A DNA stretch of 64,000 nt from Patescibacteria group bacterium. Lineage in GTDB: Bacteria > Patescibacteriota > Minisyncoccia > Phycocordibacterales > PALSA-1337. The notes beneath the pieces were generated by a model. That model was not told where the DNA came from and did not search any database. It was given only the letters and a program-made list of their open reading frames with translations. Below, piece after piece: positions 6,442 to 35,059 of this stretch. Position numbers and translations under genes: made by a program. The stretch spans positions 135,178-199,177 of the forward strand of contig JBBTRB010000004.1 in assembly GCA_038065395.1 (NCBI GenBank). Reading direction: 5' to 3'. How positions within the stretch are numbered: the stretch's first letter is position 1; every line of letters begins with the position of its first letter.

Positions 6442-6513
6442 GGCCCTATCGTCTAATGGCTAGGACGGAGCCTTCTCAAGGCTTAAATCGGGGTTCGACT
6501 CCCCGTAGGGTCA
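6442..6513 (+). tRNA. tRNA-Glu (anticodon CUC)
   Basis: Manual cloverleaf fold: acceptor GGCCCTA/TAGGGTC, D-arm GTCT..GGAC, anticodon stem GAGCC/GGCTT with loop TTCTCAA, T-arm CGGGG-TTCGACT-CCCCG, discriminator A. No encoded CCA. Confidence 0.8.
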
Positions 6514-6884
6514 CAGGTTTTGAGCGAGCACAGCGAGTGAAAAAGCTGTGACCCTAAGCAAAGCGTCTGCACGCTTTGCGTCGGGGAGTCGAAAAGGTTC
6601 TCCCTTATTTTCGACACTCTGAAGCGTAGCGGAAGAGGGGAGAAAATGGGAAACCTGTACTGAAGCTGTAAGCTTCGACTCCCCGTAGGGTCACAAACAG
6701 ATATGAAACGGTTTTCCAGTGCCTGGAATCCTCGTTTACACTTATATTCCAACGTATCTTCTATGATGGTGAGTTCGGAAAAGATTAACTTGATGATTGC
6801 TTCCTTTTCTGTTGGTTTGGCGAAATCATAATATAAACAAACGTTTTTCAAGAGTTCGGAAAGTTTTACTATATCCTTCGTCAT
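6483..6884 (-). CDS. Hypothetical small protein. Only the N-terminal ~60 codons (6700..6884) lie in unique sequence; the rest of the ORF reads through the att-like repeats and the tRNA
   Basis: ORF only. No recognisable motif. Its 3' part overlaps the tRNA and repeats, so the true extent is doubtful. Confidence 0.2.
   Translation of the reverse strand: MTKDIVKLSELLKNVCLYYDFAKPTEKEAIIKLIFSELTIIEDTLEYKCKRGFQALENRFISVCDPTGSRSLQLQYRFPIFSPLPLRFRVSKIRENLFDSPTQSVQTLCLGSQLFHSLCSLKTCDPTGSRTPI
6494..6700. repeat. Cluster of reiterated tRNA-Glu 3'-end fragments (att-like scars)
   Basis: A direct 22-bp exact copy of the tRNA T-arm/acceptor is at 6674..6695. Inverted partial copies are at 6540..6552 and 6579..6597. 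A further partial direct copy lies at 12954..12965. Confidence 0.65.
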
Positions 6885-7247
6885 GAGGTTTCTCCCCCTT
6901 CTACAATTTAAGTGGCATCCAGCAGATGGCTTGTAGATGCGCCCACCATTTCTGCTAGCAACAAAAAGTCCGCTATTGGACGGACAGGTGTACCACGAGA
7001 AATGGAGACCTATCAGTCCAGCAACGGACTTAAATTTCTTGTGGCACTTTCTCCGTTCAATGAAAGAAGCATGCTACGAGTTTTGGAATCAGAAATTTTA
7101 TAAAACAAAATTGAAAAAATGTACTTGACCCTTTGACAGAGTTACAGATGAGTAAAATACCCCTTAAAATAAGGATATTCTAAAAACTAGAGAAAGGGTC
7201 AAAAAACACAGAATTGGCTGAATCGTAAAAAAACTATTTGACAGTAT

Positions 7248-7628
7248 TTATTTTTGGTACAAACCGCGCACTTTATATGCCATATCTATAGCCGTAGCAC
7301 GCGTCGAGAAATCTGGCTCGGTAAAGGTAACTTTCACCCTGTTTTCACCCCTTTCAACCGTCAGTATTTGCCTTCCTCCTGATACAAAAATGGACTGAAG
7401 GTCTTCATCAGTAAGGAGGACTGGAAAATCCATTGTGGAGAGCTTCTGCGCCTCTAGAAGCTTCGTATGCACAGAAACTATCTTCTCATCAGAGATGAAC
7501 TCTTGGAGGTACTCCCGCCAGAATTTCGTATGCTTTATCTTCTGGGGGTTGCGGGCGTAGCTTTCGCTATATCCCGCCTCGCGCATTGCTTCAGCTAGAG
7601 AGCGCGGTTTGCCACCTTTTGCAACCAT
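7248..7628 (-). CDS. Small HTH protein resembling a phage terminase small subunit (Terminase_2-like). Probable mobile-element remnant
   Basis: N-terminal SLAEAMREAGYSESYARNPQKI resembles the AGYS...A HTH signature of terminase small subunits. ~126 aa. GC noticeably higher than neighbouring island genes. Confidence 0.35.
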   Translation of the reverse strand: MVAKGGKPRSLAEAMREAGYSESYARNPQKIKHTKFWREYLQEFISDEKIVSVHTKLLEAQKLSTMDFPVLLTDEDLQSIFVSGGRQILTVERGENRVKVTFTEPDFSTRATAIDMAYKVRGLYQK

Positions 7629-7745
7629 TTTTTCGATGGTTGCTTTTGCGCGTAGGTTTTCATGGCTTTTTTCATTCTTTCAATTATATCAATAAACCCT
7701 CAACAAAAAGGTATTTTTTTGGTATAATTTGAAAATCACATTTTT

Positions 7746-10700
7746 ATGAATTTTTCACTGAATTCCTATATAAAATACTGTTTAGGCTATCTTAGTCTCA
7801 CAAGACCTACAGGATTCAATAGAGGCACTTCAATAGACATAAAAATCCCTCAAGAATATTTCTCCTTAAGTAAACTTACGAACGGTGATACGGACGGGAG
7901 TTTGAGTGAGATTATCAACTTAGACTATTACTACAATACAGACCCGAAGGATGTTACTGAAGAAAACGAAGAAAAGTATAAAAAGGAAAAGGCACTTGCG
8001 CTACAGCTAGATGAAATATACAGCAAAGCGAAAAATGACACTTTCACAAAAGAAACCATATTGCGTTTCGGACGTTTTGATTTTGAAGTACTCGAAGAGC
8101 CTATAGTTGATACAGACGAAGAAGTTTTAGAAACCAAAAAAGACACACCAGTAGAAGAAGCAAAATTGGTATCAAAACAATTTTACCTTTTTTCATTGCC
8201 AGTAAGAATTGATAAGGAAAAAGACAAAAATAATATCGATAAATACACGATTATTCCAGTTGACTTTGAAGTTCGCCTAAACCTTCCTCCACTGTACGAA
8301 ATTTTTAGAACTTACAAAAAAGAAGATTTGGTGTACGAATTTTTAAACGAATATACCAAACTAGAAAGCGAAGGTGGTTTTTCTATTCCAATCCCTTCTG
8401 AAAAAATATTCTTAGACTTATGGCACATTCTTAAGGCAAAATTACGCCTGACTGAAGCAGTTTTTAATGAAAGTTCATTTACTCTTGATGACCTTCGATT
8501 AACTCTTGCCCCAAGAGCAAACTTCTTCTTGGTTGAAGATTTAACAAAGCTAGCGAAAGAAAAAGAGGAGCTTTTGGAAGGTACTTCGCTCTCGGGTTGG
8601 TTTTCTGAAGAAGGTCTAAACGTAAATTCGGATAGTTGTGAAGAAAAATCTCTATATTTTCCATTCCCATATGATAAGTTTCAAAGCGCAACCACTTCTC
8701 TTCTAGGTAATAAGGCTTCAATAATCCAAGGGCCACCAGGAACGGGAAAATCAGAGACTATTTCAAACATAATTTCTCATCTTGCTGTAAATAAAAACAA
8801 GGTTTTGTTCGTAAGTCAGAAACCCCAAGCTCTACGTGTTGTGAAGGATAAACTGAAAACCCTAGGCGTACCTCTTTTATTTGGATATATCCCGAGCGTT
8901 AAATTTGAGCAATCCCAGGATGAAGAGAGCGACACCATATCGTCGCAACTTGCAGCACTCGATACATATGGAGCTTATAAAGGTGTTGTAAAATCATCTT
9001 CTAATCTGAATAGCTTTACTCAAAATTCAGATGTTGTTTTCGATAAAAGAGATAAAATCATCTCCCTTGAAAGAGAGATATTTAGGCTTGAAGAACAGAA
9101 GCGTAACTACGATTTTCTTGACCAATTACCCTCAATAGATGAAGAGAGAATTATAACCGACCTCACGGAAGATTTATTTAGTGCTTATAAAAATATACTT
9201 CACAAAATATCGGCAAATAAAAATCTTATTGAGAATACCCACGACATATCAAAAAAATATAGTTTTGATAAAGAGCTATTTTGCGATAGTACTTTTTCAG
9301 ATTTACTCAAGACTGTATTGGCAGATGTTAAAAAGACTGGTTTCGATAGGTCATTTAAACTTGGAAGGTATATAAATAATCTTAGTAGAAAAATAAGACT
9401 CAAATCTCATCTAGGACAACTACCAAAAGAAATTTATGAAGAAATAGACAGCATATTAAAAAAGGACTCATCGCGGCATAGCGCAACAAAAGAATTGGAG
9501 CAGCTACTCGGTTTCTGTATTTATTGGGAAGCAATACAAGAAAATGAGAAGTTAGAAATATCTTTACAAGAAATCGAAAGTAACTTAAATCTGTCCAGAG
9601 ATGATTTTTCTACAATTTCTTCTTTTTTGAAAGAAAACTCTTTATCAGTATCGGAGCTTGTTGTTAAGCTTTCCGACCGCGCTCTCTTGAATCACAACCA
9701 GCAAAATTTTAGAGAAGATATTTCAACCCTTAAGAAAGAAGTTACGGGTAAAAATCAAATTACAAGGAAAGATATAGTGGCGCAATACCTATCTTCAATA
9801 ATCGAAGACAATATAAAAAATAATGTCTCACAGGTTAAAATATACAGAAAGCTTCAAGAGTTACAGAAAGCTTTTAAAAAATCAAAGAAAGCTTTCAAAA
9901 CTTTCGATAAGTTGAAAAATGACCCGACCAACTTTGAGACAATATTGAACATTGTTCCTGTCTGGATTATGGATTTAGACGATGCAAGTCGTCTTATTCC
10001 TTTAGTCTCAAACATGTTCGATTATGTCGTATTTGATGAAGCATCACAGTGCAATATTGCGTACACAATACCCTCAATGTATAGAGCGAAAAAGGCTGTA
10101 TTTGTTGGCGACCCAGAACAAATGAGAGACAGTACTGTAATGTTTAAATCGAACCAAGCATTTGACCAGCTCGCGAGCCGTTACAAAGTACCAGAGAGTC
10201 TACAAATAAAACCGACGGGTACAGCAGTGCAGTCTGTTTTGGATATTGCTAAAACAAGATTTGGAATACCCAAGATACTTCAATATCACTACCGTTCTCC
10301 GATGGAGTTGATTGGTTTTAGTAATAAGTATTTTTATGAACCGAAAGGCAAACGGCTTATTGCTTTGAATAACAAATATCTTACTTATAAGGATACAAAT
10401 CGGATAATGGTGCTTCATAATATCGAGTACAGCGGTATTGGAGAGATTGGCGATAATACAAACAATGCAGAGGCAGTGAAAGCACTGGAGCTTTATCTAG
10501 ATATGATTAAAGACCCAAAGTATGAAAATAAGAGTTTTGCCATACTCACGTTTTTTAATGACCAAGCAGAGCTAATCCGAAAGGTTTTTGAAGATAACAG
10601 GATTAAAGAAAGTGATAAATTAAAAATTGCTGTAATAGAAGGTATTCAGGGGGATGAAAAAGATATTGTTATATATTCTTTCGTTATTAGGGATGCCGCA

Positions 10701-11261
10701 CAAAAAAGACAGTATCGCCCTCTGACAGGAGAAACTGGAGATATGCAGGCCGATATTAACGCAGGTAGAGTAAACGTTGCTTTCTCAAGAGCAAAGCTTC
10801 AAGTTCACTGTATTATAAGTATGCCTATAGAAAAAATACCTTCAGGTATATGGATAAAGAAATACCTGGAATATGTGAGAGACAACGGTGAGGTATCTGC
10901 TTCCAGATTAACACTTCAAAAATTCGATAGTTACTTCGAGGAAGAATTCTATCATCTTCTTAAAAAGAAGCTTGGTAAGGGCTACACAATTCAAAACCAA
11001 GTCGAAAGTTGTGGCTTTAAAATTGATTTTGTTGCAACTAACACAAGTACTGGAAGACAGTTAGCAATTGAATGTGATGGGCCGACACACTTTAAAGACC
11101 ACATCGACGAGGCATATGGTATTTATGTTGATAGTGATATTCAGAGACAGAGGGTTTTGGAAAGTGCTGGTTGGACATTCTGTAGAATTGGATATTCCGA
11201 ATGGATTGAGAGCGAGGATAATAAAGAAACTATCGTTAAAAACATCAAACTACTGCTTTAA
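7746..11261 (+). CDS. SF1 (Upf1/DNA2-like) helicase fused to a C-terminal DUF559/Vsr-like (PD-(D/E)xK) endonuclease domain, with a ~330-aa N-terminal region. Hhe-like single-protein defence architecture
   Basis: Walker A IIQGPPGTGKSETI, Walker B/motif II YVVFDEASQC, motif VI RVNVAFSRAKLQVH. C-terminus GFKIDFVA...LAIECDGPTHF...QRQRVLESAGWTFCRIGYSEW matches the DUF559/Vsr-like fold signature. Confidence 0.75.
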   Translation: MNFSLNSYIKYCLGYLSLTRPTGFNRGTSIDIKIPQEYFSLSKLTNGDTDGSLSEIINLDYYYNTDPKDVTEENEEKYKKEKALALQLDEIYSKAKNDTFTKETILRFGRFDFEVLEEPIVDTDEEVLETKKDTPVEEAKLVSKQFYLFSLPVRIDKEKDKNNIDKYTIIPVDFEVRLNLPPLYEIFRTYKKEDLVYEFLNEYTKLESEGGFSIPIPSEKIFLDLWHILKAKLRLTEAVFNESSFTLDDLRLTLAPRANFFLVEDLTKLAKEKEELLEGTSLSGWFSEEGLNVNSDSCEEKSLYFPFPYDKFQSATTSLLGNKASIIQGPPGTGKSETISNIISHLAVNKNKVLFVSQKPQALRVVKDKLKTLGVPLLFGYIPSVKFEQSQDEESDTISSQLAALDTYGAYKGVVKSSSNLNSFTQNSDVVFDKRDKIISLEREIFRLEEQKRNYDFLDQLPSIDEERIITDLTEDLFSAYKNILHKISANKNLIENTHDISKKYSFDKELFCDSTFSDLLKTVLADVKKTGFDRSFKLGRYINNLSRKIRLKSHLGQLPKEIYEEIDSILKKDSSRHSATKELEQLLGFCIYWEAIQENEKLEISLQEIESNLNLSRDDFSTISSFLKENSLSVSELVVKLSDRALLNHNQQNFREDISTLKKEVTGKNQITRKDIVAQYLSSIIEDNIKNNVSQVKIYRKLQELQKAFKKSKKAFKTFDKLKNDPTNFETILNIVPVWIMDLDDASRLIPLVSNMFDYVVFDEASQCNIAYTIPSMYRAKKAVFVGDPEQMRDSTVMFKSNQAFDQLASRYKVPESLQIKPTGTAVQSVLDIAKTRFGIPKILQYHYRSPMELIGFSNKYFYEPKGKRLIALNNKYLTYKDTNRIMVLHNIEYSGIGEIGDNTNNAEAVKALELYLDMIKDPKYENKSFAILTFFNDQAELIRKVFEDNRIKESDKLKIAVIEGIQGDEKDIVIYSFVIRDAAQKRQYRPLTGETGDMQADINAGRVNVAFSRAKLQVHCIISMPIEKIPSGIWIKKYLEYVRDNGEVSASRLTLQKFDSYFEEEFYHLLKKKLGKGYTIQNQVESCGFKIDFVATNTSTGRQLAIECDGPTHFKDHIDEAYGIYVDSDIQRQRVLESAGWTFCRIGYSEWIESEDNKETIVKNIKLLL

Positions 11262-11275
11262 ATAATATCTTATTA

Positions 11276-12871
11276 TTGTATATGCCTCTCTTAACAAAAA
11301 CAGACTTTATTTTGTATCGTGAATGTCCAAATAATGTCTGGTTGAAAAGAAACAAACCAGAGGAGTACTGTAAGTTTGAGATTTCTGAATTTGAAAAATC
11401 ACTTGCTGTAATAGGTAATGATGTAGAAGAGTTGGCTCGAGGGATGTTTCCTTCGGGTTATCTTGTGGAGCGGCGAAGTGCTGGCGCACAAGAATTAACT
11501 CAAAAGTTAATTGCTGAAAAAACTCCTGTGATTTTCCAAGCAGTTTTTGCTACTGATAAATGTCTTGCGGCTACTGATGTTTTGCAATGGAATGATTCAG
11601 CCCAGAAATATGATATTTATGAAATAAAGATGTCATCTACGGAAGAGGATGACGAAGAAGAAGTGGAAGAAGGGAAGCCTAAGAAAGTTAATAAAAAGAA
11701 AGAACTCCAGTATGAATATGACCTCGCCTTTCAGGTAAATATTGCCGAGGCATGTGGTGTTCCACTACATAAAAAATACCTTGTTTGTTTGAACCGAGCA
11801 TATGTAAGGAATGGTGAGCTTGATTTTAGACCGAACCAGCTTTTCATTGTTGAGGATAAAACCGACGCAATCGAACTTATGAAAGACGTCGTTGGAGCGG
11901 AGATGTCTCAATCACAAAACTTCCTAGCGGCCACTGCGATGCCTCCCAGCCCTTGTCCTTGCTATTACAAAGGGCGCAACTCGCATTGTACGGCATTTAC
12001 ATACTTAAACCCGACCGTACCCGCATACAGTGTCCATGACTTGAATAGAATCGGAAATAGTAAGAAGTATCTAAAAGAATTACTCGATGAGGGCATTTTG
12101 GAGATTAGCGCTGTTCCTGTTGATGATAGACTTAAGCCAAAGCCCAAGAAAAGTACAGAGAAACCAAGTAAGCCGAAAAAGTTAAACCAAGTCTTAGTTC
12201 ACAAATCTCAAGAGCCTTTAATTGATATTGATTCGATAAAAAATGAACTTGGCGCACTCGTATTTCCACTTTATTTTCTCGATTATGAGACTTATCCGAC
12301 AGCAATTCCTCCTTATAATGGTTATCGACCATATCAGCAAATTGTCTTTCAGTATTCATTACACATCCTGAAAGATAAAGATTCCGAACCGATTTCTTTG
12401 GAATGTTTAATATTAGACGGTGAACCTTCTGAACGTATAGTTAAAAGCCTGCGTGAACATATTGGTGATACTGGAACTGTAATTTCTTGGTTTAAGACTT
12501 TCGAAAACTCTAGAAATCGTGAGCTGGCAACCCTAATACCGAGCCGTAGAGATTTTCTTCTCGGTCTTATTACTCGAACGTATGATTTGATGGATATAGT
12601 AGATGGTCAGCATTACGTACATCCTGGTTTTGAAGGCAGAGCATCAATTAAAAAAGTTTTGCCTGTTATTGCTCCACATCTATCTTATAAAAAACTATGT
12701 GTCCAGAGTGGTACAGATGCAATTGAAGCGTATAGGCAAATAACTAAAGGAGAGTTAACAGGTGAATTAGCCAAAGAAAAGGAGCTTCAAATGCTTGAAT
12801 ACTGCAAGTTGGATACCTACGCCATGTACGTTTTATGGAACTTCTTCAATAAGTTAGTGGATGAAAGTTAA
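11276..12871 (+). CDS. DUF2779-like protein with an N-terminal Cas4/RecB-like nuclease region and a Cys cluster
   Basis: N-terminus KTDFILYRECPNNVWL, central CPCYYKGRNSHC, C-terminal block YFLDYETYPTAIPPYNGYRPYQQIVFQYSLHIL typical of DUF2779. It starts 15 nt after the helicase stop, so is probably co-transcribed. Confidence 0.55.
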   Translation: MYMPLLTKTDFILYRECPNNVWLKRNKPEEYCKFEISEFEKSLAVIGNDVEELARGMFPSGYLVERRSAGAQELTQKLIAEKTPVIFQAVFATDKCLAATDVLQWNDSAQKYDIYEIKMSSTEEDDEEEVEEGKPKKVNKKKELQYEYDLAFQVNIAEACGVPLHKKYLVCLNRAYVRNGELDFRPNQLFIVEDKTDAIELMKDVVGAEMSQSQNFLAATAMPPSPCPCYYKGRNSHCTAFTYLNPTVPAYSVHDLNRIGNSKKYLKELLDEGILEISAVPVDDRLKPKPKKSTEKPSKPKKLNQVLVHKSQEPLIDIDSIKNELGALVFPLYFLDYETYPTAIPPYNGYRPYQQIVFQYSLHILKDKDSEPISLECLILDGEPSERIVKSLREHIGDTGTVISWFKTFENSRNRELATLIPSRRDFLLGLITRTYDLMDIVDGQHYVHPGFEGRASIKKVLPVIAPHLSYKKLCVQSGTDAIEAYRQITKGELTGELAKEKELQMLEYCKLDTYAMYVLWNFFNKLVDES

Positions 12872-13013
12872 TTTATTACAAGTATGGATTCTAGGCTTTT
12901 AATCGAGAAAGCGATAGAATCTCTATATTTAACAAGTTCGGAAAGCCACCCTATAGGGTCACAAAATTTGAATGAACTTATTTTTTTATAACTAATAAAA
13001 ATTTAAAATACAT

Positions 13014-13535
13014 ATGCTCAAAATAAATTTTTATCCTGAAAGTGATCTGAAAGACTTTGCTGAAGCTGTTACTATTTTTGAAAAAATGTGGCAAGAAGAA
13101 GGGGAACGAATCACTGATACGTGGGAACGGGTTACAGGATTGAAGTTCATTGAAACAGAAATAAATGCAGTTGTTGCTGATCTCAAGAGTTGCTCTCACC
13201 CACTTACGTTGAGGTATAGCAATGAATATGATTTCAAGAAATCTACATTGGTACATGAACTCGGTCATCGCATACTATACAGACGGGAAAGTAGTGCTGG
13301 GAACAAAACGACATTTGAGAGACATAAGTTTTTGTTTCTGGTTTTGTACGATGTTTTCTGTGAACTATATGGTCAAGAGTTTACTTATAAAGTTATAGCT
13401 TGGGATAGTAGTCTAGGAAAAGACAAAGGTAGGTCAATGTATGAAGATGCCTGGCAATGGGCATTACAATATAAGACAAAAGAAGAACGACAAAAAATCT
13501 ACAAGGAAATCTTGTCAGGAGAATATGTTTTCTAA
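13014..13535 (+). CDS. HExxH metallopeptidase-like protein, ImmA/IrrE (COG2856)-like
   Basis: Motif STLVHELGHRILY (HELGH) in a ~173-aa protein. AT-rich. Confidence 0.5.
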   Translation: MLKINFYPESDLKDFAEAVTIFEKMWQEEGERITDTWERVTGLKFIETEINAVVADLKSCSHPLTLRYSNEYDFKKSTLVHELGHRILYRRESSAGNKTTFERHKFLFLVLYDVFCELYGQEFTYKVIAWDSSLGKDKGRSMYEDAWQWALQYKTKEERQKIYKEILSGEYVF

Positions 13536-13594
13536 TTTTCGATCTAGTAACTATAAAGTTCCCAACTCTAACTTTAAGTAGTATACTAGTTGGA

Positions 13595-14215
13595 ATGGAT
13601 TCAAAACCTACTGTACGATATGCATTTATAGATGTTCAGAACACTGAAGGGACAGTCAGTCACCTTCTCGGTTTTGTTATTGATTGGCATAAGCTCTACC
13701 ATTACCTCAAAGAACAATGGAATTGCGAAAAGGTATTTTTCTATTCTGGTATTGACCAAGGTAATGAAGATAAAATCGACGAACATCTTGCTCTAAAGAA
13801 TCTCGGTTATGAGATGTCCATCAAACCGTATAAGATATATAAAAATTCCGACAAAATCATTAAAATCATGTGTTCAAAATGCGCGAATGAAATCGACTAT
13901 AAAATTGAAGGTGGTGTCCGATGGAAATCAAATTGTGATGCGGAGCTTTCTGTTGATGCAACAAATCTGGCAAAATCTGGTGCTGAATTTCTGATCTTTT
14001 CAGGAGACGGAGATTTTGAGTGTGTAATAAGGAATGCCGTAGAAAAGGGGGTGAAGGTATACGTGGTCTCCAGCGCACGGAAAGTAAAGACTGGCTTACG
14101 TTACTCTTCATCGAGATTCTCAACCAAACTACGCGAGCTCATTGCTGAGAAACGTGATCTGGTTATTTTCAAAGATATCAATGACTGGAAGATGAGGATC
14201 AAAAAAGATATTTAG
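13595..14215 (+). CDS. NYN/LabA-like (PIN-fold) nuclease-domain protein with an inserted Cys4 zinc-ribbon
   Basis: N-terminal YAFIDVQNT and FSGDGDF acidic motifs typical of NYN domains. Insert CSKCANEIDYKIEGGVRWKSNCD. Confidence 0.55.
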   Translation: MDSKPTVRYAFIDVQNTEGTVSHLLGFVIDWHKLYHYLKEQWNCEKVFFYSGIDQGNEDKIDEHLALKNLGYEMSIKPYKIYKNSDKIIKIMCSKCANEIDYKIEGGVRWKSNCDAELSVDATNLAKSGAEFLIFSGDGDFECVIRNAVEKGVKVYVVSSARKVKTGLRYSSSRFSTKLRELIAEKRDLVIFKDINDWKMRIKKDI

Positions 14216-14222
14216 ACAAAAG

Positions 14223-14253
14223 GAAAACGCCGTACAGGCCGGCGTTTTCTAAT
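14223..14253 (+). terminator. Rho-independent terminator (perfect 10-bp stem gaaaacgccg/cggcgttttc, 7-nt loop, T-run)
   Basis: Hairpin read directly. Lies 8 nt after the stop of the NYN gene. Confidence 0.8.
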
Positions 14254-14447: not shown

Positions 14448-15638
14448 ATGAAAAATCTATTACAGTCAGTCCTTGTTGGATTGATGTCTTTCGTCCCTTT
14501 GGCACACAGTGGTGACATCATCATAGAGTCACCCAACGGCGGCGAAGTCATCCGACGCAACCAGAACCTCGAAATCTTCTGGTTGAACCCTGTTCCTCTC
14601 GTCAATGCGATCTTTGTTGATCGATATGAAGACGGGGTGGTCGTCGAAACCTCTGAAATACCCCACTACGTCCATCCGAGACCCGAAGAAGGGCGCATGG
14701 GTATCAGTGTTCAGGCGAGTTACTATCTCCATCATCCGGGTACTTACAAAGTCCGGATCATCGGGACGCACAACAGTTTCAACGTCAGTGACGAAAGCGA
14801 TATGACATTCACTGTCATCGACGATGGGGTAGTCATCTGCAATCCGACCGACACAGGCTGGGCTCGTGGCGAAAGTCAGGAGTTCACCGTCAGTTGGAGC
14901 ATGATGCCTACGGGACGTCAGTATCGAGTCTATCTCTTCAACGTCTCAGAATGGGTCGGCGAAGGGTATGGCTTCGTACTCTATGAAGGCACGACGACTA
15001 CCGAGAGCGGGTCATTGACCTTCACCTCGCCGTATCCGTCGACCAACATGTCAGCCTATCCAGCATGGGAACTCAGCACGCCAGTCTCTGGTATGTATCG
15101 AGCATTCGTTCTGGATCTGGCGGACTATGGTCGGACATGGTCGGAGGACGAGATATTCCTCTCGGCCGAAGATGTCTTCATATCAGCAACACCGCGTCCG
15201 GCATTCACGATCAAGGAGGGCACAGACGACTGGTATCTCAAACTCAACGTCGATGCCAGCTTTTCTTCGGCAGATGTTCGCTCGCTCTCGATACCACTCA
15301 ATGTATGGATCGAAGATCCGGACACGGTGCTCGTAGTCACGCTCGAAGATGATAGTGGTCGGAGAGTCTCTCTGCCCAAGATCGTCCGGTTCGCCAGCCT
15401 GTATTCGGAGTTTACTCTGGCAACACTGCCACGAAGGTTCACCTTGGCTCAGGGACAATCCGAAAAACTCTTCGTGGTTGTCAAAGTCTTCCGAGGTGAA
15501 GGGAAGTTCGATATCGGACTCAACACTCTGGGCGAGGGTAGTGCCATCGGCTTCAAACGTCGGCCGCTCTCCTCCCACTATGTACACCAATGGGGGTACG
15601 GCGCTACGATCGTCAGTCGTCGCCCTGTCAGGAAGTAA
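14448..15638 (+). CDS. Secreted hypothetical protein (N-terminal signal peptide)
   Basis: MKNLLQSVLVGLMSFVPLAHS signal-like N-terminus. No recognised domain. Confidence 0.6.
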   Translation: MKNLLQSVLVGLMSFVPLAHSGDIIIESPNGGEVIRRNQNLEIFWLNPVPLVNAIFVDRYEDGVVVETSEIPHYVHPRPEEGRMGISVQASYYLHHPGTYKVRIIGTHNSFNVSDESDMTFTVIDDGVVICNPTDTGWARGESQEFTVSWSMMPTGRQYRVYLFNVSEWVGEGYGFVLYEGTTTTESGSLTFTSPYPSTNMSAYPAWELSTPVSGMYRAFVLDLADYGRTWSEDEIFLSAEDVFISATPRPAFTIKEGTDDWYLKLNVDASFSSADVRSLSIPLNVWIEDPDTVLVVTLEDDSGRRVSLPKIVRFASLYSEFTLATLPRRFTLAQGQSEKLFVVVKVFRGEGKFDIGLNTLGEGSAIGFKRRPLSSHYVHQWGYGATIVSRRPVRK

Positions 15639-19877: not shown

Positions 19878-20042
19878 TTATGTCACTGAAGTAGTAAATT
19901 CCTCCAGGTGGCGATAGTAACTTTCTCAGTTTCTACTCATACAGGCTAAAGTGACAAGAAAAGTTGTCACTTTAAGGTATTTGGCTCAAAAATGAAAACT
20001 ATATGGGAATCGACTATTAAATTCCATGCTACTATGTAAGCC

Positions 20043-20906
20043 ATGTCCTGGTTTGCATTCAGCTTGTTTTCGGTGATTTCTCTTGCAATAGCTGAGCTCT
20101 CTCTGCAGAAAATCCTGAATACCTCAAAAGCGCTCACCCCGAGAACTATTGCTTTTCTGGGGTACTTTCTCCAATCTCTATGCATCCTTCCTTTTGTATT
20201 GATATTCTTCAAAGCAGAATTCCTAAGTATTTTCACTGCCGAAACTTTCCCGAGAATCGTAGCTGTTTGCATCTTTAGTTCAATTGCTACGATCTTCTAT
20301 GCAAAAGGGTTTCAGGTTAAAAACATAAGCATATCGAGCATCTTCGGATCTTTCTCGATTGTGGTTTCCACTTGTCTTGGTATCTATTTCTACAGCGAAG
20401 GAACTTCTCTTGTGAAGTTCGCAGGTATCATTGCTATCCTTCTTTCAATTGTTATCTTGAATATCAAAAATGTCTCTCTTGAGAAAAATCATTTCTATGG
20501 TCTTGCCGCTGGATTCTTCTACGGTATCTGTTTTGTCATAGATAAAGGCACCGTGGCAACCATAACTCCTGCCGTATACGTGTTTTGGCTCTTCCTCCTC
20601 AGTGCATTTCTTTGTTTCATGTCGAATCCAAAAGAGGTAGTCGTATCTATACGGAACGAATCATTTCCGACATTTAAGATTATTATTCTTACGAACATTT
20701 GTTTTCTCCTCTATAACCTCCTTACATATACCGCATATACTGCAGGTGGGGAAGTTGGTAAAGTCGACGCCATCAACAGCTCTCAGATCTTTCTGATCAT
20801 ACTTTTTGAGTATTTCATCTTGAAGCATAAGGGTTCGATAGGGAGAAAGTTGCTCGCTGCTACTATCGCTTTCGCAGGAGTGCTTATAATAGGGGTGTAT
20901 CAATAA
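20043..20906 (+). CDS. DMT/EamA-family-like 10-TM transporter
   Basis: 287 aa, two repeated 5-TM halves. AT-rich. Confidence 0.55.
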   Translation: MSWFAFSLFSVISLAIAELSLQKILNTSKALTPRTIAFLGYFLQSLCILPFVLIFFKAEFLSIFTAETFPRIVAVCIFSSIATIFYAKGFQVKNISISSIFGSFSIVVSTCLGIYFYSEGTSLVKFAGIIAILLSIVILNIKNVSLEKNHFYGLAAGFFYGICFVIDKGTVATITPAVYVFWLFLLSAFLCFMSNPKEVVVSIRNESFPTFKIIILTNICFLLYNLLTYTAYTAGGEVGKVDAINSSQIFLIILFEYFILKHKGSIGRKLLAATIAFAGVLIIGVYQ

Positions 20907-25644: not shown

Positions 25645-26856
25645 CTACACCCCTCTCTCGGTGATCTTGATAAAGTTCTCGATGATGTCTCCCAAGTTCT
25701 TGGCGGATTCGTCAGCGCTGTCGAGGATGGATTTGAGTTCGGGGCCAACAGGGCCGGCAGTGCCTTTGCGGATGGATTCGAGCTCCCATTTGAGTGAAGT
25801 CAGGGGAGTACGGAGGTTGTGTTGAGTCGAGGTGATGAATTCATCCTTGGTCTTGTTGAGCTGTTCAAGCTCGGCTCGAGCACGCTTCTCGACTTCATAC
25901 GCCCTGCGCACATCACGCGTCTGATCGGCGATCCGCTCTTCGAGATGCTCGTTGATCTCTCGTACCCGTCCATAGGCGGTCTTGATCTCCCGTGCCAACT
26001 TCTCGATCTGCTCTCGCTGTCGTATCTCGCTCAACACACTCCGGATCAATACAATGCCGAGTACCACACTGACGACGAAGAGGCTCCCCTGGATCACGAT
26101 ATCCTCTCGTGTCTCTGACAATACCGTGCGGATCAGGATCACGATCCATAACGTGAAGGTGACCAACTCTACCGCGATGACCTTGATGTTAAAGAGATGG
26201 TGGCGGAGGATGGCGAGGGAGATGGCGGATATGAATATGATTGATCCGATAGAGTCTAGGGGTATTAAAGATGTAATTCCTAGTATCGGTAATATAAAAT
26301 TGACAATTCCAACAATAAAACCAAAACCATATAATCCGGAGGCGACATAGCCATATTGCCTTTTTTCAATTCCGCTAGCATCGATAAACGCCTTCGTGAT
26401 TAGGTAGAGTATATAGATACTTATTAATATGAATTGTAACCCAAAAATCGGAAATAAGATTCCGAACGTGCCATCAAATCCTCCTGTAAAACTTCGCTCA
26501 ACGTTGGCAATGATTAAATTTGTAGAGATTGATAAAAAATAAAGTAAAATTGTACTCGACCAGAGGATAGATTTTAATAAACCCCTCATTCCTTTCTTGT
26601 GAATAAAATAATAAACCCAAGTTAGGATGGTAGGAGTTAATATGATCCCTGTGGCATATGCATGTTTGACCCAGAAATTGACAGGTTCAAGCGTGATCAA
26701 CGTATTTGTAATAATCCAGTATGCTGTGACAGCTGAGACTACTGCAAACAACTGATTAATCTTATTTTTCTTGTCATTAAGTAACACGACAACGCCGAGT
26801 GATACCACCAGAATAGACAAGATGTAAATTATCAACGATGTGAAATCCAAATTCAT
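25645..26856 (-). CDS. Membrane sensor with an HisKA (DHp) domain but no HATPase domain. Truncated paralogue of the 28225..29838 histidine kinase
   Basis: Multi-TM N-terminus. H-box FITSTQHNLRTPLTSLK. Ends ~65 aa after the H-box. Junction motif LIRSVLSEIRQREQIEKLA matches LIRSVIKEIAQREKIQKLA of the paralogue. Confidence 0.7.
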   Translation of the reverse strand: MNLDFTSLIIYILSILVVSLGVVVLLNDKKNKINQLFAVVSAVTAYWIITNTLITLEPVNFWVKHAYATGIILTPTILTWVYYFIHKKGMRGLLKSILWSSTILLYFLSISTNLIIANVERSFTGGFDGTFGILFPIFGLQFILISIYILYLITKAFIDASGIEKRQYGYVASGLYGFGFIVGIVNFILPILGITSLIPLDSIGSIIFISAISLAILRHHLFNIKVIAVELVTFTLWIVILIRTVLSETREDIVIQGSLFVVSVVLGIVLIRSVLSEIRQREQIEKLAREIKTAYGRVREINEHLEERIADQTRDVRRAYEVEKRARAELEQLNKTKDEFITSTQHNLRTPLTSLKWELESIRKGTAGPVGPELKSILDSADESAKNLGDIIENFIKITERGV

Positions 26857-26916
26857 CCCAGTACTATACTATTTTTGGTTATACTTGGTAAGTCTTATTT
26901 GTGTTAATATAGTGGG

Positions 26917-27291
26917 ATGACTTTCGGGGAACATTTAATGTTGGATGGATACGAGGGTGACTCGGCATTACTAAATGATAAAGATCTTGTGCTCAAGTGC
27001 CTTAATGAGTTACCTGAGCTTTTAGGTATGAAGAAGCTTTCGAATCCTGAAATCTACTGGGCTGCAGGTAATGGTCAAAAAGACCCTGGGGGATGGAGCG
27101 GCTTTGTTGTAATTGAGGAGAGTCATATAAGTATTCATACTTTCCCTGGAAAAAGGTTTGTCAGTGCTGATGTCTATACTTGTCAGAATGGTTTAAATAC
27201 CACATACATCACGGATTATTTTAAGAAAAACTTCTTATTGAGCGACATTGAATCCAATTTTGTTAAGAGGGGAACTAGATATCCTGACTGA
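26917..27291 (+). CDS. speH: S-adenosylmethionine decarboxylase proenzyme (class 1b, SpeH/SpeD-like)
   Basis: Self-cleavage site context EESHISIHTFPG (ES|HISIHTWPE-type). Confidence 0.8.
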   Translation: MTFGEHLMLDGYEGDSALLNDKDLVLKCLNELPELLGMKKLSNPEIYWAAGNGQKDPGGWSGFVVIEESHISIHTFPGKRFVSADVYTCQNGLNTTYITDYFKKNFLLSDIESNFVKRGTRYPD

Positions 27292-27302
27292 ATCTAAGTT
27301 AT

Positions 27303-28235
27303 ATGGAAAATGTACTTATAAAACTCACTGAATTTAGTAATCAGATCGCTGGAAATTATAATCTCGATTTAGAGGTATTTTTTGTAATATATTTAACCTC
27401 ATTTATTCCTTTCTACCTTGGTTATTTTCTGATGATTTTTGGTAGTACAAGGAAACTGAGATTAAAAGATATATTTTCTTTGAACATAAGAAATAAGTTA
27501 AGGTGGAATGATCAATCAAGTTTAGGCTTACTAATCCATCTCTTTGGCAGGATTATGCCTTATGCCTATATAGTATGGTTTGGAAGAAACTTACCTATAT
27601 TGATGCAAGTCCTGGTTTGGGGATCTATAGTATTAAGTATATTTTTTGCAGTCAGAAAATTTTTTGTTGGAAAGTCTAGACCTCCTCTGGATATCGAGAT
27701 TGTCAAAAAAGAGATTATTGATGATCCGAAAGATAAAGAAAAGTTGTGGGAAATATATAATTCAAATTTTGAACACGTAAATAAGATTAGTCCGTGTAAA
27801 CAGAGTTTTGATCACGAGCATTTTATTGAGACGCTCACAAATCACTCAGTTAAGAAGTATCTAATCCTAAAGAAAGGAGGGGGCTTTTTGGGTATAGGCT
27901 TTATAACTTCTGATTTTAAGAATACGCCCTGGATAAGTGAAGATTATTTCAAAACAAATTTTCAATTTGAATACCAGAATAATCTAATGTTTTATTTCAT
28001 GGGTTTGGCGATTAGTTCAGAATTCCAAGGAAGAAAGTATTCAATACCACTACTTGAGTACATAATAGATGATCTTCCACATGGGGCAGTAATGGGATTT
28101 GATCACTCACGAAATATTAATCCACTCCTACACCACTTTACTAGAGTTGTTCGGCAGGCGAAAATAATGAAACGTATGTATCTAGACAGACAACATTACC
28201 ACGTTGTTACAAGAAAAAACTCTCATGATCTTTAA
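27303..28235 (+). CDS. Membrane protein with a C-terminal GNAT-like acyltransferase domain (tentative)
   Basis: 3-4 N-terminal TM helices. C-terminal GLAISSEFQGRKYSIPLLEY resembles GNAT motif A. AT-rich. Confidence 0.45.
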   Translation: MENVLIKLTEFSNQIAGNYNLDLEVFFVIYLTSFIPFYLGYFLMIFGSTRKLRLKDIFSLNIRNKLRWNDQSSLGLLIHLFGRIMPYAYIVWFGRNLPILMQVLVWGSIVLSIFFAVRKFFVGKSRPPLDIEIVKKEIIDDPKDKEKLWEIYNSNFEHVNKISPCKQSFDHEHFIETLTNHSVKKYLILKKGGGFLGIGFITSDFKNTPWISEDYFKTNFQFEYQNNLMFYFMGLAISSEFQGRKYSIPLLEYIIDDLPHGAVMGFDHSRNINPLLHHFTRVVRQAKIMKRMYLDRQHYHVVTRKNSHDL

Positions 28236-35002: not shown

Positions 35003-35059
35003 GATAGTTCTTTAGGCACAGGGTCTCATCAGTTACATGGTGAGGCTCTTTTTAATACT

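What the first reader, a model, noticed from the sequence alone, without database searches (positions are those of the whole stretch)
6442..14253. AT-rich island at the tRNA-Glu locus carrying a cluster of predicted nucleases and a helicase: candidate anti-phage / anti-MGE defence island
Directly downstream of the dcw genes and tRNA-Glu(CUC), the composition switches visibly from roughly half-GC coding sequence to strongly AT-rich sequence for about 7.5 kb. It returns abruptly after a perfect terminator at 14223..14253.

The segment is bracketed by copies of the tRNA 3' end (22-bp exact direct repeat at 6674..6695; 12-bp core tagggtcacaaa again at 12954..12965). This is the classic footprint of site-specific integration into a tRNA gene.

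The cargo is unusual for a small genome:
- an ~1170-aa SF1 helicase fused to a DUF559/Vsr-like endonuclease;
- a DUF2779/Cas4-like protein;
- an ImmA/IrrE-type HExxH protein;
- a NYN/PIN-like nuclease with a zinc ribbon;
- a terminase-small-subunit-like remnant.
No integrase is present, so the island is probably old or fixed.

Taken together this looks like a horizontally acquired defence island, and some of the gene pairings do not correspond to a named system I know.
Basis: partly seen in the sequence, partly recalled or inferred. Interest (0 to 1): 0.85.

Follow-up and report, generated by a model that had tools for sequence, protein, structure and literature searches.

The report
Decayed integrative element carrying helicase-nuclease
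The AT-rich stretch behind tRNA-Glu is the immobilised wreck of a serine-recombinase mobile element in a groundwater CPR bacterium; it still carries an intact helicase-nuclease plus dual-nuclease gene pair that is probably, but not provably, an anti-phage or anti-plasmid module.

Summary
GC falls from about 0.50 to 0.37 (GC3 0.31-0.38 against 0.50-0.61) between about 6.9 and 14.25 kb, downstream of murF and tRNA-Glu(CUC).

None of about 158 related loci carries the helicase, DUF2779 or HExxH genes here. The murF/tRNA-Glu to csd gap varies from 0.26 to 9.2 kb in relatives, so this is an integration hotspot.

Bases 6672-6884(-) encode the last 71 residues of a ~570-aa large serine recombinase. 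Full-length homologues overlap tRNA-Glu in relatives.

- **Element E1 (6696-12953):** it lies between tail copy 6674-6697 and a degenerate attR at 12942-12965. It ends in an intact operon: a 1171-aa Upf1-like helicase with a Vsr-like nuclease, then a Cas4-like/DEDDy nuclease (DUF2779).
- **The helicase:** it is distantly related to Hhe, ProA and PDC-S37, far below the two curated NCBIfam cut-offs (Hhe, ProA). Its N-terminal domain is specific to its own family.
- **Recurrence:** the gene recurs in unrelated serine-recombinase elements, four times with a Cas4-like partner.
- **HExxH and NYN:** they lie outside E1 and are not a conserved pair.
- **The 22-bp repeat:** it brackets only a ~160-nt element, which is conserved, covarying and matched to the tRNA. 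It has no Rfam family and is the most novel item here.

The parts
6442..6514 (+). tRNA-Glu(CUC), the host integration target
   Evidence: ARAGORN. Rfam tRNA 59.7 bits. The murF to tRNA-Glu order is conserved in most related loci.
6516..6673 (+). Conserved structured tRNA-trailer element. It holds a terminator-like hairpin, an inverted copy of the tRNA tail (6547-6556 and 6582-6593) split by a covarying 9-bp hairpin (6558-6580), a core domain and a UGUAA-loop hairpin.
   Evidence: Inverted repeats I5, I17 and I18. Alignment across 10-18 loci. MFE -81.3 kcal/mol, z -6.3. Covariation in 25-28 pairs, 0/500 shuffles. No Rfam family.
6674..6697 (+). Second copy of the tRNA 3' end (tail2). It is the end of the trailer element and serves as attL of the serine-recombinase element.
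   Evidence: Exact 22-bp repeat. The recombinase remnant reads into it exactly as full-length recombinases read into the tRNA in L033, L005 and L080.
6672..6884 (-). Remnant of a large serine recombinase gene: the last 71 codons of about 570. The mechanical ORF runs on to 6483 through the trailer and into the tRNA.
   Evidence: 49-62% identity to residues ~490-562 of the 563-574-aa recombinases of L033, L080 and L005, E 1e-20 to 1e-27. No further remnant lies upstream of 6884.
7248..7628 (-). 126-aa protein of a small family found in serine-recombinase elements. It has a REAGYSESYARNPQK helix-turn-helix-like motif and is shortened at both ends relative to ~181-aa homologues.
   Evidence: 20 homologues, none with a Pfam domain. 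Alignment. A homologue lies inside a 5.8-kb recombinase element in L177. No phage match.
7700..7728 (+). Promoter-like site upstream of the helicase operon (TCAACA, 17-nt spacer, TG-TATAAT)
   Evidence: Consensus scan, 10/12 matches with an extended -10. This is a consensus match only.
7746..11261 (+). 1171-aa Upf1-like SF1 helicase fused to a C-terminal Vsr/MTES_1575 (DUF559) endonuclease. It has a family-specific N-terminal domain (1-310) and a ~300-aa helical insertion.
   Evidence: Pfam AAA_11, AAA_12, MTES_1575. PADLOC and NCBIfam. PDB relatives IGHMBP2, Sen1 and Upf1. Walker A, DEASQ and ECDGP motifs are invariant in 19 homologues. The N-domain is restricted to this family.
11276..12871 (+). 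531-aa DUF2779 protein: an N-terminal Cas4-like PD-(D/E)xK nuclease with four Cys, plus a C-terminal DEDDy 3'-5' exonuclease. It starts 14 nt after the helicase stop.
   Evidence: Pfam DUF2779 8.5e-35 and NCBIfam UU173 family. Homologous partner genes follow the helicase in L084, L092 and L093. Domain interpretation from PMC13621843 and PMC3985635.
12942..12965 (+). Candidate attR of element E1: a degenerate tRNA-tail copy, 17/24 matches with the last 12 exact
   Evidence: In L084 an analogous degenerate tRNA-Gln tail lies directly after DUF2779.
13014..13535 (+). 173-aa HELGH zinc metallopeptidase-like protein of a small orphan CPR family. It lies outside E1.
13595..14215 (+). 206-aa NYN-domain (LabA-like) predicted ribonuclease
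   Evidence: Pfam NYN 3.2e-14. PADLOC NYN 1.3e-8, partial. An NYN gene also sits in the same hotspot in L015, beside a resolvase and a Rep gene.
14223..14249 (.). GC-rich palindromic hairpin (10-bp stem) that marks the distal edge of the AT-rich DNA
   Evidence: sequence. (terminator-like scan, scored on the minus strand). GC returns to host level just beyond it.

Best explanation
**What it is (confidence about 0.85).** The AT-rich DNA is foreign material that accreted at a tRNA-seeded integration hotspot of a Paceibacteria-like CPR bacterium from Hainich groundwater.

Its main part, E1 (6696-12953), is a decayed integrative element of the large-serine-recombinase type.
- It inserted at a copy of the tRNA-Glu 3' end, with attL at 6674-6697 and a degenerate attR at 12942-12965.
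- It later lost about 87% of its recombinase gene and most of its backbone, so it is now immobile.

**What survives intact.** At the attR-proximal end there is a two-gene operon:
1. a Upf1-like SF1 helicase with a C-terminal Vsr-like endonuclease;
2. a Cas4-like PD-(D/E)xK plus DEDDy exonuclease (DUF2779).

**Inferred function (confidence about 0.5).** This is a nucleic-acid-degrading defence or inter-element competition module of the Hhe/ProA/PDC-S37 kind. The proposed steps are:
- the family-specific N-terminal and helical-insert domains sense an invader-specific cue or DNA structure;
- the ATP-driven 5'-3' helicase translocates on the DNA;
- the Vsr-like domain nicks or cuts it;
- the dual nuclease resects the resulting ends.

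**The rest.** The distal 1.3 kb (12966-14253) carries an orphan HExxH metallopeptidase-like gene and an NYN ribonuclease gene. It is a separate accreted piece, not a partner system.

**Shown:** composition, absence from relatives, recombinase remnant, att-like repeats, domain content and motif conservation, recurrence in other recombinase elements.

**Inferred:** the defence role and the order of biochemical events.
For: **Composition and absence from relatives**
- GC and GC3 break sharply at the island edges.
- The helicase, DUF2779 and HExxH genes are absent from 79 + 79 related murF/tRNA-Glu loci. Flanking synteny (mraZ-rsmH-ftsL-pbp-murF-tRNA ... csd-aaRS) is kept and the gap varies from 0.26 to 9.2 kb.

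**Recombinase and att sites**
- 6672-6884(-) matches the C-terminus of full-length recombinases that overlap tRNA-Glu in L033, L005 and L080.
- Truncated recombinase fragments at the same site occur in L015, L077, L097 and L099.
- The attR 12-mer has a chance expectation of 0.01.
- The architecture tRNA / recombinase ... helicase-DUF2779 / degenerate tail is repeated at tRNA-Gln in L084.

**Helicase contexts**
- Homologues at 46-81% identity lie about 3-5 kb from mutually unrelated recombinases (22-37% identity) in L082, L084, L090 and L091/92.
- A Cas4-like gene follows within 7-52 nt in L084, L092 and L093, and within 14 nt in the window.
- Other neighbours are a methyltransferase gene followed by a ResIII helicase gene (restriction-modification-like) in L093 and an OLD-like TOPRIM ATPase in L178.

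**Homology to defence proteins and intactness**
- PADLOC PDC-S37 1e-67, Hhe 8e-36, MkoA/MkoC about 1e-24. NCBIfam ProA 2.8e-70 and Hhe 9.6e-44.
- The catalytic motifs are invariant across 19 homologues and the gene is full length.
- Published work describes Hhe as a single-gene helicase-nuclease defence that becomes toxic when phage trigger genes are expressed (10.1101/2024.10.10.617714).
Against: - No experimental data exist for any member of this CPR family.
- Scores are far below the curated family cut-offs: ProA 237 against 1500 bits, Hhe 149 against 2000 bits. Only about 40% of the PDC-S37 profile is covered. The Hhe-defining DUF4011 domain is not detected.
- DUF2779, HExxH and the 126-aa ORF have no PADLOC hit.
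- A DUF2779 homologue is quasi-essential in the minimal Mycoplasma cell (PMC13621843). That hints at a housekeeping role for this nuclease type.
- The helicase consistently sits inside recombinase elements, which is equally compatible with a function for the element itself.
- attR is degenerate (17/24), and no strain-level empty site was found. The best relative has 66% MurF identity.
- No attR was found for the distal 1.3 kb.
Confidence: 0.62

Rival explanations
1. The helicase-nuclease and the Cas4-like/DEDDy nuclease are maintenance genes of the mobile element itself. They might process rolling-circle or excised circular intermediates, or resolve ends. They would persist here only as a relic.
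For: - Five of ten contexts (the window, by its remnant, plus L082, L084, L090 and L091/92) place the helicase in the same orientation, 3-5 kb from a serine recombinase.
- In the window and L084 the pair sits directly against attR.
- L084 carries a weak Rep_trans-like gene, E 9e-4.
- The family is essentially absent from IMG/VR viral contigs.
Against: - The backbones around the helicase are unrelated to one another. The recombinases share 22-37% identity and the other genes are not homologous.
- Sister elements at the same tRNA-Glu site (L033, L005, L080) lack the helicase altogether.
- The helicase also occurs without any recombinase, next to a methyltransferase/ResIII pair or an OLD-like gene.
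- Here the operon stays fully intact while the element's backbone has decayed, which suggests selection on the host side.
Confidence: 0.2
2. The pair is a domesticated DNA-repair or end-resection machine, analogous to AddAB or Dna2. It would compensate for the reduced repair repertoire of a CPR genome.
For: - A helicase plus a PD-(D/E)xK nuclease with a Cas4-type Cys cluster echoes AddAB and Dna2 (own knowledge).
- DUF2779 is quasi-essential in JCVI-syn3.0.
- In L086 the helicase sits among housekeeping genes, with recA and recX about 4.5 kb away.
Against: - The distribution is sporadic. The genes are absent from about 158 related loci.
- Composition is AT-rich even in L086.
- The genes lie in mobile-element remnants.
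- The closest HMMs are defence families, not repair families.
Confidence: 0.1
3. One reading: a single ~7.5-kb island, delimited by the tRNA and the terminator, delivered by a classic tRNA-targeting tyrosine integrase that is now completely lost. All five cargo genes would form one defence island.
For: - AT-richness is uniform from 6.9 to 14.25 kb: 0.368 for E1 and 0.363 for the distal piece.
- tRNA tail repeats are present.
- An NYN gene also occurs in the same hotspot in L015.
Against: - The integrase remnant is a serine recombinase.
- An att-like site lies inside the island at 12942-12965.
- No tail copy is found near 14253.
- HExxH homologues sit in host contexts without NYN.
- Four of the five intact genes have no defence-family support.
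Confidence: 0.08

Closest known systems
Hhe (single-gene helicase + Vsr-like endonuclease anti-phage protein; NCBIfam NF042953, PADLOC Hhe)
   Same: - AAA_11/AAA_12 Upf1-like SF1 helicase core followed by a C-terminal DUF559/MTES_1575 PD-(D/E)xK endonuclease.
- Carried in variable, mobile-element-associated regions.
   Different: - 1171 aa against about 1800-1900 aa.
- No DUF4011 domain detected.
- HMM score 149 bits against a cut-off of 2000.
- Its own N-terminal domain occurs only in 1150-1450-aa proteins.
- Often paired with a Cas4-like nuclease, whereas Hhe is described as a single gene.
ProA (NCBIfam NF058533) and PADLOC candidate PDC-S37
   Same: These are the best-scoring profiles (2.8e-70 and 1e-67). 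They align over the helicase C-terminal half plus the nuclease.
   Different: - Only residues about 470-1161 align, covering roughly 40% of each profile.
- 237 bits against a cut-off of 1500.
- I found no literature on either in the held library, so their mechanisms cannot be compared.
Tycheposon-type, tRNA-seeded additive genomic islands (Prochlorococcus; 10.1101/2020.12.28.424599)
   Same: - Elements integrate at the 3' end of a specific tRNA.
- Successive integrations push older ones distally.
- Fragmented integrases and partial tRNAs are left behind, and degenerate cargo accumulates.
- This matches the window and the variable murF to csd gap.
   Different: - Here the recombinases are large serine recombinases whose 3' ends overlap the tRNA, not the tyrosine recombinases of most tycheposons.
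- The host is a CPR bacterium.
- The elements are small (about 6-10 kb) and have no recognisable capsid or packaging genes.
Solo Cas4 / DUF2779 (UU173, MMSYN1_0389) nucleases
   Same: The same two-domain fusion of a Cas4-like PD-(D/E)xK nuclease and a DEDDy exonuclease.
   Different: - Here all four Cas4-type Cys are present (C17, CxC-x8-C near 244-255), unlike the Mycoplasma protein.
- The gene is operonic with a helicase-nuclease on a mobile element rather than a stand-alone chromosomal gene.
AddAB, Dna2, Nhi-type helicase-nuclease machines
   Same: They combine an SF1 helicase with PD-(D/E)xK nuclease(s), one with a Cas4-like Fe-S cysteine pattern. The expected chemistry is likely similar: unwinding coupled to strand cleavage and resection (own knowledge).
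   Different: - No sequence-level membership. The PDB relatives are IGHMBP2, Sen1 and Upf1.
- Different domain order.
- No Chi-recognition or repair context.

Membership tests
Hhe anti-phage protein | Whole-protein match to the curated equivalog HMM NF042953 (cut-off 2000 bits) | tested here: not met
   149.2 bits, E 9.6e-44. The best stretch covers only residues 943-1166.
Hhe anti-phage protein | N-terminal DUF4011 domain | tested here: not met
   No DUF4011 hit at E <= 0.1 in Pfam. The N-terminal 310 aa match only 55 cluster representatives, all from this 1150-1450-aa family or its fragments.
Hhe anti-phage protein | SF1 (AAA_11/AAA_12) helicase core plus C-terminal Vsr/DUF559-type endonuclease in one polypeptide | tested here: met
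   AAA_11 7.5e-17, AAA_12 2.6e-19, MTES_1575 2.6e-17, DUF559 3e-5. The catalytic motifs are invariant.
Hhe anti-phage protein | Experimentally shown protection against phage | not testable with these tools
   No experimental data exist for any CPR homologue.
ProA anti-phage protein (NF058533) | Whole-protein score >= 1500 bits | tested here: not met
   237.2 bits. Residues 470-1161 align to profile positions 1024-1697 of 1903.
PADLOC PDC-S37 candidate system | Near full-length match to PDLC05009 | tested here: inconclusive
   E 1e-67, but only profile positions 739-1331 of 1550 are covered.
Site-specific integrative element at a tRNA gene | Recombinase gene adjacent to the tRNA-proximal att site | tested here: met
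   A remnant only: 71 C-terminal codons of a large serine recombinase abut tail copy 6674-6697.
Site-specific integrative element at a tRNA gene | Direct repeats of the tRNA 3' end at both ends of the inserted DNA | tested here: met
   attL 6674-6697 is exact. attR 12942-12965 matches 17/24 with 12 exact bases, chance expectation 0.01. This holds for E1 only. No repeat was found for 12966-14253.
Site-specific integrative element at a tRNA gene | Empty site in related genomes | tested here: met
   About 158 related loci lack the helicase, DUF2779 and HExxH genes. In L035 and L023 only 260-572 bp separate murF/tRNA-Glu from csd. These relatives are distant (MurF <= 66% identity). No strain-level empty site was found.
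Site-specific integrative element at a tRNA gene | Present-day mobility (excision, circular form) | not testable with these tools
   This needs read-level data. The truncated recombinase predicts immobility.
Defence island | Clustering of several recognised defence genes or systems | tested here: not met
   Only the helicase (and weakly, partially, the NYN protein) hits PADLOC models. No complete named system is present.
ImmA/IrrE (Peptidase_M78) metallopeptidase | Match to PF06114, and pairing with an Xre-type HTH repressor | tested here: inconclusive
Phage terminase small subunit | Match to TerS profiles or to phage genes | tested here: not met
   No Pfam, PHROG or NCBIfam hit. No tblastn hit in 50,697 phage records. 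None of the homologues has a Pfam domain.
DUF2779 / Cas4-like-DEDD nuclease | PF11074 above the gathering score, plus N-terminal PD-(D/E)xK motifs | tested here: met
   120.2 bits against 23.3. C17, D101 and K118 are conserved among helicase-linked homologues. The L092 homologue is annotated PDDEXK_1 + DUF2779 + RNase_H_2.

The most novel reading that the evidence does not exclude
It may be one end of a previously undescribed class of structured module matched to its tRNA.

**Architecture.** The module is about 130-180 nt long and consists of a terminator-like hairpin, an anti-tail, a covarying hairpin, a core and a tail copy.

**Distribution.** It follows tRNA-Glu in at least 15 distinct sequences from different species. 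It follows tRNA-Ser in one further locus, with shared core motifs.

**Key property.** The tail and anti-tail always match the 3' 20-22 nt of the neighbouring tRNA.

**Possible roles.**
- A tRNA-trailer RNA that toggles pairing with the tRNA 3' half.
- A 'landing pad' that supplies a second attB, so that serine-recombinase elements insert without touching the tRNA. This is the arrangement seen in the window, L003 and L075.
- A miniature element mobilised in trans.

Separately, the helicase plus Cas4-like/DEDDy operon may be an unnamed two-gene defence system specific to CPR bacteria.
Probability: 0.3. Interest if true: 0.75.

Novelty: new variant of a known kind. Interest (0 to 1): 0.5.

Why it matters
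CPR (Patescibacteria) genomes are tiny and are often said to be poor in classical defence systems and mobile elements. This locus bears on three points.

1. **A recurrent integration hotspot.** The murF-adjacent tRNA-Glu site is used by small serine-recombinase elements whose genes overlap the tRNA. This gives a concrete model of how such genomes acquire and then fix foreign genes.

2. **A compact, testable helicase-nuclease family.** The family is about 1170 aa and specific to CPR. It has a private N-terminal domain and a recurrent Cas4-like/DEDDy partner. If it proves to be a defence system, it extends the Hhe/ProA group to a two-gene form and to a phylum-level lineage with almost no experimentally tested immunity.

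3. **An unexplained structured element.** The tRNA-matched trailer element has unusually strong covariation. It could reveal a new link between tRNA 3' ends, transcript processing and site-specific recombination.

If none of this holds, the locus remains an ordinary decayed genomic island.

Tried and rejected
**Searches that gave nothing**
- Literature searches for ProA and PDC-S37 returned nothing usable.
- p396 has no relatives in JGI metagenomes.
- A second MurF scan found no relative closer than 66% identity, so no strain-level empty site was obtained.
- The helicase is absent from IMG/VR: none by single-protein search, and one 27%-identity relative by profile.

**Structure work that failed or was uninformative**
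- The full-length AF2 model of the helicase was poor (pLDDT 62.9, pTM 0.35). The Foldseek PDB search on it gave no significant match, only coiled-coil noise. The N-domain fold therefore remains unknown.
- The afdb50 library was unavailable.
- A PDB sequence-profile search with the HExxH family gave only chance hits.

**Ideas considered and rejected**
- *The 133-aa ORF 6483-6884 is a real gene.* Rejected. Only its first 71 codons are recombinase-like. The rest is a read-through of the trailer element and the tRNA antisense strand.
- *HExxH and NYN form a two-gene system.* Rejected. The neighbours differ in L095 and L096.
- *The 160-bp segment is an integration scar or a deleted element.* Judged unlikely. 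It is conserved, covaries, and has a tRNA-Ser counterpart.
- *The trailer element belongs to a known RNA family.* No Rfam hit beyond the tRNA itself.

Full report
**1. Source and observation**

The window is part of a 249-kb contig from a 0.1-µm-filtered Hainich groundwater metagenome (ENA ERZ1292619). NCBI labels the same proteins 'Patescibacteria group bacterium'. The nearest genomes are Paceibacteria-like MAGs labelled Taylorbacteria, Paceibacterota and so on, at no more than 61-66% MurF identity.

The compositional observation is correct.
- 500-nt windows fall from GC 0.50-0.54 to 0.31-0.41 between about 6750 and 14300, and recover by 14500.
- Island GC is 0.368 against 0.472 for the rest of the window.
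- GC3 of the four large island genes is 0.31-0.38, against 0.50-0.61 in pbp, murF, p396 and the aminoacyl-tRNA synthetase.

The sequence landmarks are also real.
- tRNA-Glu(CTC) is at 6442-6514.
- The 22-bp exact repeat is at 6494-6515 and 6674-6695.
- The 12-mer TAGGGTCACAAA recurs at 12954, with two hits against 0.01 expected.
- A 10-bp GC-rich hairpin lies at 14223-14249.

**2. The locus is an integration hotspot and the island is absent from relatives**

In 79 species-representative genomes and 79 metagenome loci the order mraZ-rsmH-ftsL-pbp-murF-tRNA-Glu is conserved. It is followed, after a variable gap, by csd and a class I aminoacyl-tRNA synthetase.
- The gap is 260 bp in L035, 572 bp in L023 and up to 9.2 kb in L078. 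In the window it is 10.9 kb.
- None of these loci contains a homologue of the helicase, DUF2779, HExxH, the 126-aa ORF or p396. Only L015 has a distant NYN gene.

Horizontal acquisition is therefore well supported, although only against distant relatives.

**3. There is an integrase remnant, and it is a serine recombinase**

The first 71 codons of the mechanical ORF 6483-6884(-) are 49-62% identical to residues ~490-562 of 563-574-aa proteins in L033, L005 and L080 (E 1e-20 to 1e-27).
- Those proteins start with the resolvase catalytic motif. They match the Resolvase/Recombinase/Zn_ribbon_recom proteins of other loci at 22-30% identity.
- Their 3' ends overlap tRNA-Glu on the opposite strand. 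In the window, the fragment overlaps the second tail copy in the same way.
- No further recombinase remnant lies upstream of 6884.
- C-terminal stumps of the same recombinase lie next to tRNA-Glu in L015, L097 and L099, and a further stump lies about 8 kb downstream of it in L077.
- Other recombinase lineages sit at the same site in L062, L067, L103 and L124.

This is the pattern of repeated integration and decay described for tRNA-seeded additive islands such as the tycheposon islands (10.1101/2020.12.28.424599). The difference is that the recombinases here are serine, not tyrosine, enzymes.

**4. Boundaries**

Tail copy 6674-6697 serves as attL.

The sequence at 12942-12965 matches the tail at 17 of 24 positions, with the last 12 exact. 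The divergent left half and exact right half are what a P-B' hybrid site would look like.

L084 gives independent support.
- A 72%-identical helicase lies in an element that begins with tRNA-Gln overlapped by a 543-aa serine recombinase.
- That element ends with helicase-DUF2779, followed at once by a degenerate tRNA-Gln tail (GAGGTTC...CCCCAGCA) and host-composition genes.

I therefore delimit element E1 as 6696-12953.

The remaining AT-rich 1.3 kb (12966-14253) carries HExxH and NYN. It has no detectable terminal repeat and is best read as an older or separate accreted piece.

**5. Cargo**

*Helicase-nuclease (7746-11261)*
- Pfam finds AAA_11, AAA_12 and MTES_1575/DUF559.
- The nearest solved relatives are the Upf1-like SF1B helicases IGHMBP2, Sen1 and Upf1.
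- The best profiles are PADLOC PDC-S37 (1e-67), Hhe (8e-36) and MkoA/MkoC, and NCBIfam ProA (2.8e-70) and Hhe (9.6e-44).
- All of these are partial. The two NCBIfam matches fall far below their curated cut-offs: 237 against 1500 bits and 149 against 2000 bits.
- More than 800 homologues exist, nearly all 1150-1280 aa and, where a source names them, all from CPR lineages, at 46-85% identity.
- Walker A (GPPGTGKS), DEASQ, motif VI and the ECDGP nuclease motif are invariant.
- The N-terminal 310 residues occur only in this family: 55 cluster representatives among 1.84 billion proteins. They are not DUF4011.
- The structure model was too poor to classify this domain. It does predict an all-helical insertion of about 300 residues between Walker A and Walker B.

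*DUF2779 protein (11276-12871)*
- It starts 14 nt after the helicase stop.
- It is a fusion of a Cas4-like PD-(D/E)xK nuclease, with four Cys, and a DEDDy exonuclease (PMC3985635 and PMC13621843).

*HExxH protein (13014-13535)*
- It belongs to a 35-member orphan family.
- Only 4 of 32 homologues give weak Peptidase_M78 hits.
- Its homologues sit beside gyrA or near a restriction-modification operon, not beside NYN genes.

*NYN protein (13595-14215)*
- It is a bona fide NYN-domain protein.
- An NYN gene also occurs in the L015 hotspot, together with a resolvase and a Rep gene.

*126-aa ORF (7248-7628-)*
- It is a shortened member of a small family of ~181-aa proteins.
- A homologue lies in another small recombinase element, L177.
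- Nothing links it to terminases.

**6. Genomic contexts of the helicase**

Ten places were examined.

| Locus | Helicase identity | Context |
|---|---|---|
| window | 100% | recombinase stump, helicase, DUF2779 |
| L082 | 81% | 597-aa recombinase |
| L084 | 72% | tRNA-Gln, 543-aa recombinase, DUF2779 downstream |
| L088 | 81% | tyrosine-integrase fragment |
| L090 | 68% | 567-aa recombinase, primase-like gene, UDG, SDH_protease |
| L091/92 | 46% | 540-aa recombinase, HTH_17, PDDEXK_1/DUF2779/RNase_H_2 gene downstream |
| L093 | 47% | methyltransferase + ResIII (restriction-modification-like), SDH_protease, PDDEXK_1 gene downstream |
| L086 | 47-48% | AT-rich patch among housekeeping genes |
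| L178 | 46% | prophage-like genes upstream, OLD-like TOPRIM ATPase downstream |

- The recombinases and backbones are mutually unrelated (22-37% identity; other genes not homologous).
- The elements at tRNA-Glu in L033, L005 and L080 lack the helicase.
- The helicase therefore behaves as exchangeable cargo, with or without a Cas4-like nuclease, rather than as backbone.
- It keeps company with defence-type genes and is virtually absent from viral contigs.

**7. Mechanism**

The most likely function is a nucleic-acid-targeting defence or inter-element competition module that works like Hhe-type helicase-nucleases.

Hhe is described as a single-gene helicase-nuclease system that becomes toxic when particular phage genes are expressed (10.1101/2024.10.10.617714).

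By inference, the private N-terminal and helical-insert domains would sense an invader cue. ATP-driven 5'-3' translocation would then be coupled to Vsr-like cleavage, and the Cas4-like/DEDDy partner would resect both strand polarities.

None of these steps is shown for this family.

The rivals are a function for the element itself and a domesticated repair machine. They are disfavoured by the cargo-like distribution and by the sporadic, AT-rich occurrence, but they are not excluded.

**8. The 22-bp repeat belongs to something else**

The repeat brackets 158 bp, not the island.

*Distribution and architecture*
- The arrangement 'tRNA, 127-174 nt, copy of the last ~20 nt' is found behind tRNA-Glu in 18 of the fetched loci (15 distinct sequences). 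It is found once behind tRNA-Ser, out of 176 tRNAs examined.
- Every copy has a terminator-like hairpin, then an inverted copy of the tail ('anti-tail').
- In most copies the anti-tail is split by a 9-bp hairpin with a YUGC loop. A core of one of two or three types and a hairpin whose 3' strand runs into the tail copy then follow.

*Covariation*
- The three tail-derived segments covary with each species' own tRNA, for example GAGTC/GACTC, GATTCCCT/AGGGAATC and CCCGG/CCGGG.
- On the RNAalifold structures, 96% and 93% of cells pair, against 28-46% when partners are slid.
- 25 and 28 pairs show double compensatory changes, against 3-11 in the slid controls. No shuffle out of 500 reaches these values.
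- The window copy folds at -81.3 kcal/mol, z = -6.3.
- One caveat applies: the structures were derived from the same alignments.

*The tRNA-Ser copy*
- In L023 the tail and anti-tail are switched to the tRNA-Ser sequence.
- It shares the core motifs CGAAAGACGGA, GAGTCGGGG and GTGACCGA with some tRNA-Glu copies.

*Status*
- Rfam has no matching family.
- Foreign DNA abuts the second tail rather than the tRNA in the window and in L075, where a 3.7-kb insert with HTH and KilA-N genes ends in a third tail. In L003 an unclassified 187-aa ORF abuts the second tail in the same way.
- I cannot say whether this is an RNA, a DNA recombination module or a miniature element. It is the most unusual feature in the finding's coordinates.

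**9. Verdict**

The island as such is a new variant of known things. It is a decayed tRNA-targeting integrative element with a distant, shorter, two-gene relative of Hhe-type defence proteins.

The label 'defence island' is only partly justified. Interest is moderate for the island and higher for the trailer element.

Noticed in passing
window 6516-6697; also L003, L016, L022, L026, L030, L034, L036, L075, L078, L108, L150, L151, L156, L157, L160 (behind tRNA-Glu) and L023 7619-7792 (behind tRNA-Ser): A conserved ~130-180-nt structured element follows the tRNA. It consists of a terminator-like hairpin, an inverted copy of the tRNA tail, a covarying hairpin, a core and a direct tail copy. The tail and anti-tail always match the adjacent tRNA. 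Covariation is strong, and no Rfam family matches.
   Followed up: partly
window 61181-61254: A tRNA-like sequence (acceptor-like stem GTGGACCAG/CTGGTCCAC, T-arm GGGGTTCGATTCCCC) that ARAGORN does not call. Rfam gives a weak tmRNA match (21 bits, E 1.5e-6, below the gathering score) and a faint permuted-tmRNA match just downstream.
   Followed up: partly
window ~26000-28500, ~35000-36500 and ~20000-20750: Further low-GC patches (0.33-0.40) occur in the same window. The first carries a HisKA-only protein, an AdoMet decarboxylase-like gene and an unknown 310-aa ORF. The second carries unknown 138-aa and 545-aa ORFs. These may be additional acquired segments.
   Followed up: partly
window 14448-15638 (+): A 396-aa ORF of host-like composition (GC3 0.60) lies immediately distal to the island. 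It has no Pfam or NCBIfam hit and no relative in 158 related loci or in JGI metagenomes. It is an orphan gene inside the variable murF to csd gap.
   Followed up: partly
L033 11350-17548, L005 11414-16939, L080 10631-14663: Apparently intact ~5-6-kb serine-recombinase elements lie at tRNA-Glu in relatives. Each has a recombinase whose 3' end overlaps the tRNA by 20-60 nt. L033 and L005 also share a ~200-aa ORF, a ~455-aa protein (also present in L090) and a ~400-aa protein; the L080 backbone differs (a ~470-aa ORF with no homology to these). None has a Pfam annotation.
   Followed up: partly
L088 12761-13630, L090 11523-12464, L093 6492-7427: An SDH_protease/NfeD-like (ClpP-fold) serine protease gene recurs within about 1 kb of the helicase in three of the ten contexts. 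It may be an alternative partner or a co-travelling cargo gene.
   Followed up: no
L178 13103-14713 and L093 2622-6490: Helicase homologues lie about 1.5 kb from an OLD-like TOPRIM/AAA_15 ATPase (L178) and from an N6_N4 methyltransferase gene followed by a ResIII helicase gene, a restriction-modification-like pair (L093). These are defence-type neighbours.
   Followed up: no
window 6483-6884 (-): The reading frame of the recombinase stump stays open for a further 62 codons. It runs through the trailer element and into the antisense strand of the tRNA, which produces a spurious 133-aa ORF that gene callers annotate.
   Followed up: yes
L088/L089 18453-19522: A diversity-generating retroelement signature (a bAvd gene plus an RVT_1 reverse transcriptase gene) lies about 7 kb downstream of a helicase homologue.
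   Followed up: no
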